From NCBI RefSeq assembly GCF_006345805.1, contig NW_021831830.1:3781-67780 (forward strand): a stretch of DNA of 64,000 bases, in the 5' to 3' direction. The translations under genes and the position numbers were made by a program. The notes under the pieces are model-generated. The model saw nothing but the letters and a program-made list of their open reading frames with translations. It made no database searches and had not been told where the DNA came from. Shown here piece after piece: positions 45,867 to 46,054 of the stretch. The DNA is from Octopus sinensis (taxonomy: Eukaryota). Position 1 is the first letter of the stretch. Each line of letters begins with the position of its first letter.

Positions 45867-45942
45867 CATATACTCTTTTACTTGTTTCAGCCATCCGGCT
45901 GAGGCCATGCTGGGGCACCGCCCTTATTTTTTTATTTCTTAT

Positions 45943-46054
45943 TCGACGGATCCGGCGCCTTTCGTGGAAGCTTTCGCCCGCTTCTTAGGACCGACTGACC
46001 CGTGCTCGACCGCCGTTGGCACGGAACCCTTCTCCACTTCGGTCTTCGAAGGTC
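45943..46054 (-). pseudogene. 28S rRNA fragment (region leading into D7a), fused to a LINE/SINE 3' tail at 45872-45922
   Basis: ttcgaagaccgaagtggagaagggttccgtgccaacggcggtcgagcacgggtcagtcggtcctaag matches the conserved 28S core GAAGTGGAGAAGGGTTCC...GGGTCAGTCGGTCCT. Confidence 0.9.

What the first reader, a model, noticed from the sequence alone, without database searches (positions are those of the whole stretch)
45872..46054. 28S rRNA fragment fused to a CR1/SINE 3' tail: candidate rRNA-derived SINE
On the minus strand, ~110 nt of 28S rRNA is followed by an A-rich linker (aataagaaataaaaaaataa) and then ggcggtgccccagcatggcctcagccggatggctgaaacaagtaaaagag, all within a microsatellite. The rRNA part stops in the D7a region, where the protostome hidden break lies, so it may be the 3' end of 28S-alpha. 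The tail has its own stem variant (CAGCC/GGCTG), hinting at a distinct family rather than a one-off template switch.
Basis: partly seen in the sequence, partly recalled or inferred. Interest (0 to 1): 0.75.

Follow-up and report, generated by a model that had tools for sequence, protein, structure and literature searches.

The report
One-off 28S rRNA–LINE tail chimera
In an octopus-like genome, a 111-base exact copy of ribosomal RNA is joined to the tail of a common jumping gene; it is likely a single recent copying accident of a known kind rather than a new jumping-gene family, and it possibly marks the spot where invertebrates cut this RNA in two.

Summary
Window 45944-46054 (-) is 28S rRNA (Rfam E=2e-12). 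Positions 45944-46053 match high-depth contigs of a probable RNA run with no difference. Next come a 21-nt A-rich stretch and a two-hairpin tail shared with a LINE and many SINE copies in the window.

The 'new SINE family' reading is not supported. A 45-nt exact copy of the 'private' stem variant lies in a separate contig, and no listed tail-side loose end continues into rRNA. No listed run holds more than 10 of 14 words of the fused element. There is no Pol III B box, and the possible TSD is at chance level.

Best reading (0.6): a young one-off 28S/LINE chimeric retrocopy, a class described for primate L1. The rRNA stops 40 nt into D7a, where GC-rich sequence gives way to an A/U-rich stretch. 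That fits the 3' end of 28S-alpha, but the break was not mapped.

Limits: no genome is held, the species is unknown, and one contig hints at an rRNA-free version of the site.

The parts
45944..46054 (-). 111-nt sense copy of 28S rRNA from just upstream of the 5' hidden-break marker to 40 nt inside D7a; 5'-truncated
   Evidence: Rfam E=2e-12; 0 differences over 45944-46053 to X14 contigs of depth about 2100, rRNA continues differently at both ends; landmarks
45932..45943 (-). 12-nt A-rich stretch of unassigned origin: untemplated or slipped bases, donor sequence, or the hypervariable D7a loop of the window's own species
   Evidence: not matched by X14 rRNA; depth in bin 45930-45939 is 0 in X14 and about 1.5-4% of the neighbouring bins in the DNA runs; one X2 joint ends at 45943
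45923..45931 (-). A-rich leader belonging to the tail donor
   Evidence: contigs in X2 (2), X3 (4) and X6 (3) match the tail up to 45931, then go on into non-rRNA sequence (table 7)
45873..45922 (-). LINE-type 3' tail with two hairpins, likely the RT-recognition signal; the second stem is a compensatory variant
   Evidence: fold z=-2.57; same two hairpins in a 10-sequence alignment with compensatory changes in 4 of 10 pairs; exact 45-nt match in an X14 contig
46055..46152 (.). AT/GT microsatellite 5' of the element
   Evidence: TRF
45835..45872 (.). AT then GT dinucleotide run 3' of the element; a 10-nt match to the other flank is at chance level as a TSD
   Evidence: sequence; TSD control
22067..24700 (+). 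5'-truncated LINE (RT, one frameshift) whose short 3' UTR carries the same two-hairpin tail; a relative of the likely donor, not the donor itself
   Evidence: Pfam RVT_1 E=1.5e-31; 87-89% to P0001; first hairpin 20 of 20 identical to the element's, whole tail 36 of 50
46476..46680 (-). neighbouring copy of the abundant SINE with the commoner version of the tail
   Evidence: BLAST within the window; tail 42 of 50 identical

Best explanation
A 111-nt exact piece of 28S rRNA is joined in sense to a LINE-type 3' tail, likely as a single recent chimeric retrocopy: a LINE reverse transcriptase likely began at a nick in an AT microsatellite, copied about 60-70 nt of a tail-bearing RNA, likely jumped (or was pre-ligated) to a free 28S RNA end in D7a that is possibly the natural 3' end of 28S-alpha, and stopped after 111 nt. 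Shown: the parts, their order, orientation and boundaries, and the identity to current rRNA. Inferred: a single event, template switch versus ligation, and use of the break end. It has no recognisable promoter and is predicted to be a dead-on-arrival pseudogene.
For: The orientation is sense, with the rRNA 5' of the LINE end, as in primate 28S/L1 chimeras (n=18, 50-482 nt, 83% sense; passages). The rRNA part has 0 differences over 110 nt and 45 nt of the tail have 0 differences to contigs of one run, so both parts look young, whereas all 24 listed 28S-like pieces from the DNA runs have 2-10 differences. The tail exists without an rRNA head (tables 7 and 8); Kojima argues that many head-less copies sharing the 3' end are what independent template switches predict (passage). 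A LINE with this tail type is in the window. The fused form is not held whole by any of 24 listed runs: best 10 of 14 words. The rRNA ends 75 nt after the 5' break marker and 40 nt after the D7a start motif. The kept D7a part is 65% GC, while the next 30 rRNA letters in X14 are 19 of 30 A/T (hand count); the break is reported in an AU-rich D7a window. No B box is found within 1 mismatch.
Against: No TSD can be shown: the best candidate is 10 nt with a 4-nt offset, and 37 of 344 control runs reach 10 or more. One X2 contig (depth 48.5, short side 21 letters, letters between not known) joins 45943 to 46055, skipping exactly the rRNA (table 5); this could be the same site without the rRNA. The window's species is unknown and no genome is held, so absence in organisms A and B may not apply to it. 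All runs were contigs, which drop rare variants, and X3 was read to about 80%. Depth in the junction bin (2606 in X2) is too coarse to exclude tens of copies. The break was not mapped. The rRNA end at 45944 is defined against organism A; a few diverged copies match 1-6 letters further.
Confidence: 0.6

Rival explanations
1. Two separate events: a short tail-only insertion with its A-rich leader already sat in the microsatellite, and the 28S piece was later pasted at its 5' edge (trans-mobilisation or capture at a DNA break).
For: The X2 joint 45943 to 46055 skips exactly the 111-nt rRNA at single-copy-like depth. Tail-only insertions beside microsatellites exist: one contig in each of X2, X3 and X6 has the tail to 45922, then 17 other letters, then microsatellite (table 5c). 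10 of 16 window tails have a dinucleotide run within 80 nt, against 34% of random windows (some of the 16 are duplicates). Dispersed 28S-like pieces are common (24 of 24 listed DNA pieces).
Against: The joint's short side is only 21 letters, likely microsatellite, and the letters between are not known. It appears in 1 of 4 runs, and the tool warns about joints with sides under 30. No poly(A) or duplication flanks the rRNA alone. Both parts look equally young.
Confidence: 0.2
2. A small rRNA-headed retroposon family confined to the window's species, for example copied from an rDNA unit that carries a truncated LINE end in D7a and is read through by Pol I.
For: The head-plus-LINE-tail anatomy would be recognised by the LINE RT. 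Both tail hairpins are intact.
Against: Only one copy lies in 64 kb. At least 4 of 14 words are missing from every listed run, including the deep DNA runs of two organisms that hold the same 28S words. No listed piece spans the junction, and depth there is 0 in the RNA-like run. No Pol III B box. The stem variant occurs without rRNA. The main text of the O. vulgaris repeat annotation has no occurrence of 'rRNA' or '28S'.
Confidence: 0.1
3. Assembly artefact: rDNA, tail and microsatellite sequence were joined wrongly.
For: The fused form is not found whole in any listed run. The parts are high-copy and the flanks are low-complexity. The window has several near-identical duplications.
Against: The order and orientation are those expected of a retrocopy. 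There is no shared repeat at the junction to drive a mis-join ('both' = 0 at the joint). A DNA assembly has no reason to stop at the D7a loop.
Confidence: 0.06

Closest known systems
[quoted passage not shown]
   Same: A 28S fragment in the reported size range (50-482 nt), 5' of a LINE 3' end, in sense orientation; attributed there to template switching or RNA ligation; one-off loci
   Different: The partner here is a non-poly(A), hairpin-tailed LINE of an octopod. The fragment ends in D7a rather than starting near nt 3636. No TSD or orthologous empty site could be shown.
SINE28 of mammals (PMC4994717; abstract and first part of section 9 read)
   Same: A short dispersed 28S-derived sequence followed by an A-rich stretch
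   Different: SINE28 comes from the terminal ~500 nt of 28S, has a simple-repeat tail, TSDs in 24 of 29, 27 human loci and reported Pol III transcription. This element is from the middle of 28S, ends in a LINE-type tail, and is seen once.
SINE3 (5S head) and SINEU (snRNA head) (PMC5786205, PMC4494074; passages read)
   Same: Structural-RNA head on a LINE-type tail; SINEU is thought to have begun by a template switch
   Different: They have hundreds to thousands of copies with a shared junction; SINE3 has an internal Pol III promoter. Neither is seen here.
Octopod LINE and SINE pair sharing this tail (window 22067-24700 and 46476-46680; nearest named protein relatives from Argonauta hians, 65%)
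   Same: Same two-hairpin 3' end
   Different: The element has its own second-stem variant, found exactly in another expressed contig, and an rRNA head in place of ORF2 or a SINE body. The names CR1-group and OR-type SINE are recalled, not tested.

Membership tests
SINE (rRNA-headed) | many dispersed copies sharing the head-tail junction | tested here: not met
   1 copy in the window; at most 10 of 14 words in 24 listed runs; no listed spanning piece in 4 runs. The window's own genome could not be searched.
SINE (rRNA-headed) | internal Pol III promoter (A and B boxes) | tested here: not met
   no B box within 1 mismatch; A-box-like matches at or below the shuffled mean (box motifs recalled)
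SINE (rRNA-headed) | LINE-derived 3' tail | tested here: met
SINE (rRNA-headed) | transcribed as a unit | tested here: inconclusive
   depth 0 across 45930-45939 in the one RNA-like run, but contigs cannot show absence
SINE28 | derived from the 3'-terminal ~500 nt of 28S | tested here: not met
   model positions 1475-1587 of 3401
28S/LINE chimeric retrocopy | rRNA piece directly 5' of a LINE 3' end, sense orientation | tested here: met
   whether the tail came from a LINE or from a SINE bearing it is not resolved
28S/LINE chimeric retrocopy | one TSD around both parts | tested here: inconclusive
   10-nt candidate, reached by 37 of 344 controls
28S/LINE chimeric retrocopy | both parts inserted at the same time (empty ortholog lacks both) | tested here: inconclusive
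   both parts match current sequence exactly, but one X2 joint skips the rRNA alone
Retrocopy of the 28S-alpha 3' end (protostome hidden break) | 3' end lies between the two conserved markers, in D7a | tested here: met
   94 nt from the start of the 5' marker (mean marker distance in molluscs 107) and 40 nt past the D7a start motif. A 7-of-8 match to the D7a end motif at 45964 is too close to the 5' marker (74 nt) and aligns upstream of it in the Rfam model.
Retrocopy of the 28S-alpha 3' end (protostome hidden break) | 3' end equals the mapped end of 28S-alpha in this species | not testable with these tools
   all 24 runs offered were contigs; no mapped octopus position in the sections and supplement passages read
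CR1-group LINE (tail donor) | RT phylogeny places it in the CR1 group | not tested
   no named reference set; only APE-type endonuclease plus RT shown

The most novel reading that the evidence does not exclude
The free 3' end that the hidden break leaves on 28S-alpha is a recurrent template-jump or ligation hotspot for LINE reverse transcriptases in protostomes. Chimeras like this one would then be genomic records of the break site, and occasionally the seed of an rRNA-headed retroposon. Octopods should also show a second cluster at the reported H88 break.
Probability: 0.2. Interest if true: 0.6.

Novelty: new member of a known kind. Interest (0 to 1): 0.25.

Why it matters
As a single locus it matters little. 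It extends 28S/LINE chimeras from primate L1 to a hairpin-tailed LINE in an octopod, and shows the raw material from which RNA-headed SINEs are thought to arise. It would matter more if such chimeras cluster at the D7a break. The break could then be mapped from genome assemblies alone, and it would show that broken rRNA ends are available to LINE reverse transcriptase in the germ line.

Tried and rejected
Genome-wide copy count: impossible, no genome is held. A 23-nt D7a motif found nothing in metagenome contigs or genome contigs, and the LINE C-terminus found no relative in metagenome contigs; these collections are uninformative for an octopod. ARAGORN found no tRNA in the window (bacterial mode). 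The whole-window Rfam scans gave no rRNA hit at all, not even this one, so they say nothing about other rDNA pieces; the 60 hits are miRNA models, all below their gathering scores and read as matches to microsatellites.

Folding the rRNA piece alone was not significant (z=+1.09). The C-termini of 30 of the 120 listed LINE relatives did not identify the tail donor. PDB and atlas searches did not give the LINE clade. The apparent pile-up of contig depth towards the D7a end was rejected as evidence, because depths are summed over branched contigs and conserved parts may be filtered. The stopping points of the 24 diverged pieces (11 at 45938-45947, 10 at 45981-45985, 3 elsewhere) were rejected too, because the query stops being rRNA at 45944. 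The flank 45790-45880 was skipped as repeat, so the locus itself could not be recognised in any run.

Literature: nine searches listed no paper on an rRNA-headed octopus SINE or on break-anchored chimeras; subscription papers and Repbase were not searchable. The supplements of PMC6925239 held none of six cephalopod genus names. bioRxiv supplements of the L1 chimera paper were not seen and may list fragment ends.

Full report
Observation. On the minus strand, 46054-45873 reads as 111 nt of GC-rich sequence, 21 A-rich nt and a 50-nt tail, between dinucleotide runs. The first part is large-subunit rRNA: Rfam LSU_rRNA_eukarya, 53.4 bits, E=2e-12, model 1475-1587 of 3401. The host looks like an octopod: the nearest named relatives of a LINE protein in the window are from Argonauta hians at 65%. 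The species is not known and no genome is held.

Boundaries. I laid contigs of four public runs (three DNA-like, one RNA-like; organisms A and B) on 45790-46076. In the RNA-like run X14, two contigs of depth about 2100 match 45944-46035 and 46006-46053 with no difference. The rRNA goes on with other letters before 45944 and behind 46054. So the piece is 45944-46054, cut at both ends and very young. All 24 pieces listed from the DNA runs are 28S-like with 2-10 differences, mostly at low depth, so older dispersed rDNA pieces are common; some of the 24 are the same locus in two runs.

The tail. It folds into two hairpins (z=-2.57). The same hairpins appear in a 10-sequence alignment of window tails, with compensatory changes in 4 of 10 pairs. 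A 5'-truncated LINE at 22067-24700 (RVT_1 E=1.5e-31) ends in this tail 26 nt after its stop codon; its first hairpin is 20 of 20 identical to the element's. The tail is therefore a LINE 3' end also used by the local SINEs. However, an X14 contig of depth 131 matches 45881-45925 exactly. DNA contigs in X2, X3 and X6 (2, 4 and 3 contigs) match to 45931 and continue into non-rRNA sequence. The variant belongs to an existing family with no rRNA head. Whether that family is a LINE or a SINE was not found. The clade name CR1 is recalled, not tested.

Is the fusion multi-copy? It occurs once in the window. Of 24 listed runs, none holds more than 10 of 14 sampled words; eleven hold 9, the level of the rRNA alone. 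Five words therefore overlap non-rRNA sequence, and the deep DNA runs of two organisms hold at most one of them. No listed piece crosses the junction, and depth in 45930-45939 is 0 in X14 and 515-2982 in the DNA runs, against tens of thousands on either side. Two cautions apply. A junction contig would be 60-73 letters long and the shortest listed pieces are 67-71, so its absence from the list is only suggestive. The summed depth alone does not exclude tens of copies. The word count is the stronger evidence, and it holds only for organisms A and B. There is no Pol III B box within one mismatch.

One event or two? Sense orientation, size and order match the primate 28S/L1 chimeras (18 loci, 50-482 nt, 83% sense; passages), which the authors attribute to template switching or RNA ligation. 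Both parts match current sequence exactly, which fits one recent event. Against this, no TSD can be shown: the 10-nt candidate is equalled by 37 of 344 controls, many of which are not comparable microsatellites, so the true chance rate is higher. Also, one X2 contig joins 45943 to 46055, skipping exactly the rRNA, with a short side of 21 letters and unknown letters between. That may be another tail copy beside a microsatellite, which is common here (10 of 16 tails against 34% of random windows). It may also be this site before the rRNA arrived. I give 0.6 to one event, 0.2 to two events, 0.1 to a species-restricted family and 0.06 to an artefact.

The hidden break. The piece contains the 5' marker of Natsidis et al. 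with 2 mismatches (46038-46019) and the D7a start motif (45989-45984). It ends 40 nt later, 94 nt from the marker start; the mean marker distance in molluscs is 107. A near match to the D7a end motif at 45964 is not the 3' marker: it is only 74 nt from the 5' marker and aligns upstream of the D7a hairpin in the Rfam model. The kept D7a part is 65% GC, while the next 30 rRNA letters in X14 are 19 of 30 A/T (hand count). The break is reported in an AU-rich D7a window (passages). The interval between the markers is about 3% of the Rfam model's length, so a random end would seldom fall there. I put the chance that this is the true 28S-alpha end at about 0.6 (inference). It was not mapped, since only contigs were offered. 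A 2026 preprint reports a second, octopus-specific break in helix 88 and mentions the protostome gap beside it, placing that gap in 'D6' rather than D7a and giving no position in what I read (abstract, sections 5, 9, 16 and supplement passages).

Comparison. It works like a chimeric retropseudogene and meets the anatomical test for that class; the TSD and timing tests are inconclusive. It fails the SINE tests that could be run (shared junction in many copies, promoter) and is not SINE28, which derives from the 3' end of 28S. Kojima's criterion for independent chimeras, abundant head-less copies with the same 3' end, applies here (passage). Other papers were seen as passages only: PMC4758252, PMC5786205, PMC13282606, PMC10946416, PMC13343379, PMC11481361. 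An unchecked note of this scan describes a 28S piece ending in D7a beside a LINE in another genome; it is a lead for the hotspot idea, not support.

Verdict. A real, young 28S/LINE-tail chimera, likely a one-off: a new member of a known kind, interest 0.25. The open point of value is whether such chimeras cluster at rRNA break sites.

Noticed in passing
window 22067-24700 (+): 5'-truncated LINE with RT, 87-89% to P0001 from its residue 193, one frameshift near 24050-24060, short two-hairpin 3' UTR followed by tetranucleotide and AT repeats.
   Followed up: partly
window 17150-17503 (-): Older 3' fragment of a related LINE (51% to P0001) with a third version of the two-hairpin tail.
   Followed up: partly
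runs X2, X3, X6 laid on window 45938-46055: Many diverged 28S-like pieces at low depth, with several different continuations past the D7a stem; likely older dispersed rDNA copies, other organisms not excluded.
   Followed up: no
runs X2, X3, X6, joint 45922 to 46057: A contig with the bare tail, 17 other letters and a microsatellite, with the same 17 letters in organisms A and B: likely an older tail-only insertion (table 5c).
   Followed up: no
window 3211-5830: Tandem array of about 175-180-nt units related to SINE pieces at 11547-11908 and 30077-30310.
   Followed up: no
window 34822-39737, 49934-52303, 20404-21573: Near-identical local duplications (93-99%), each of the first two carrying SINE copies; real tandem duplication or assembly redundancy.
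   Followed up: no
window 6900-7900: Long G-rich trinucleotide-type repeat giving GC skew 0.53 in bin 6001-8000.
   Followed up: no
window 45642-45835: Flank next to the element resembles the end of a Penelope-like element; recalled, not tested.
   Followed up: no
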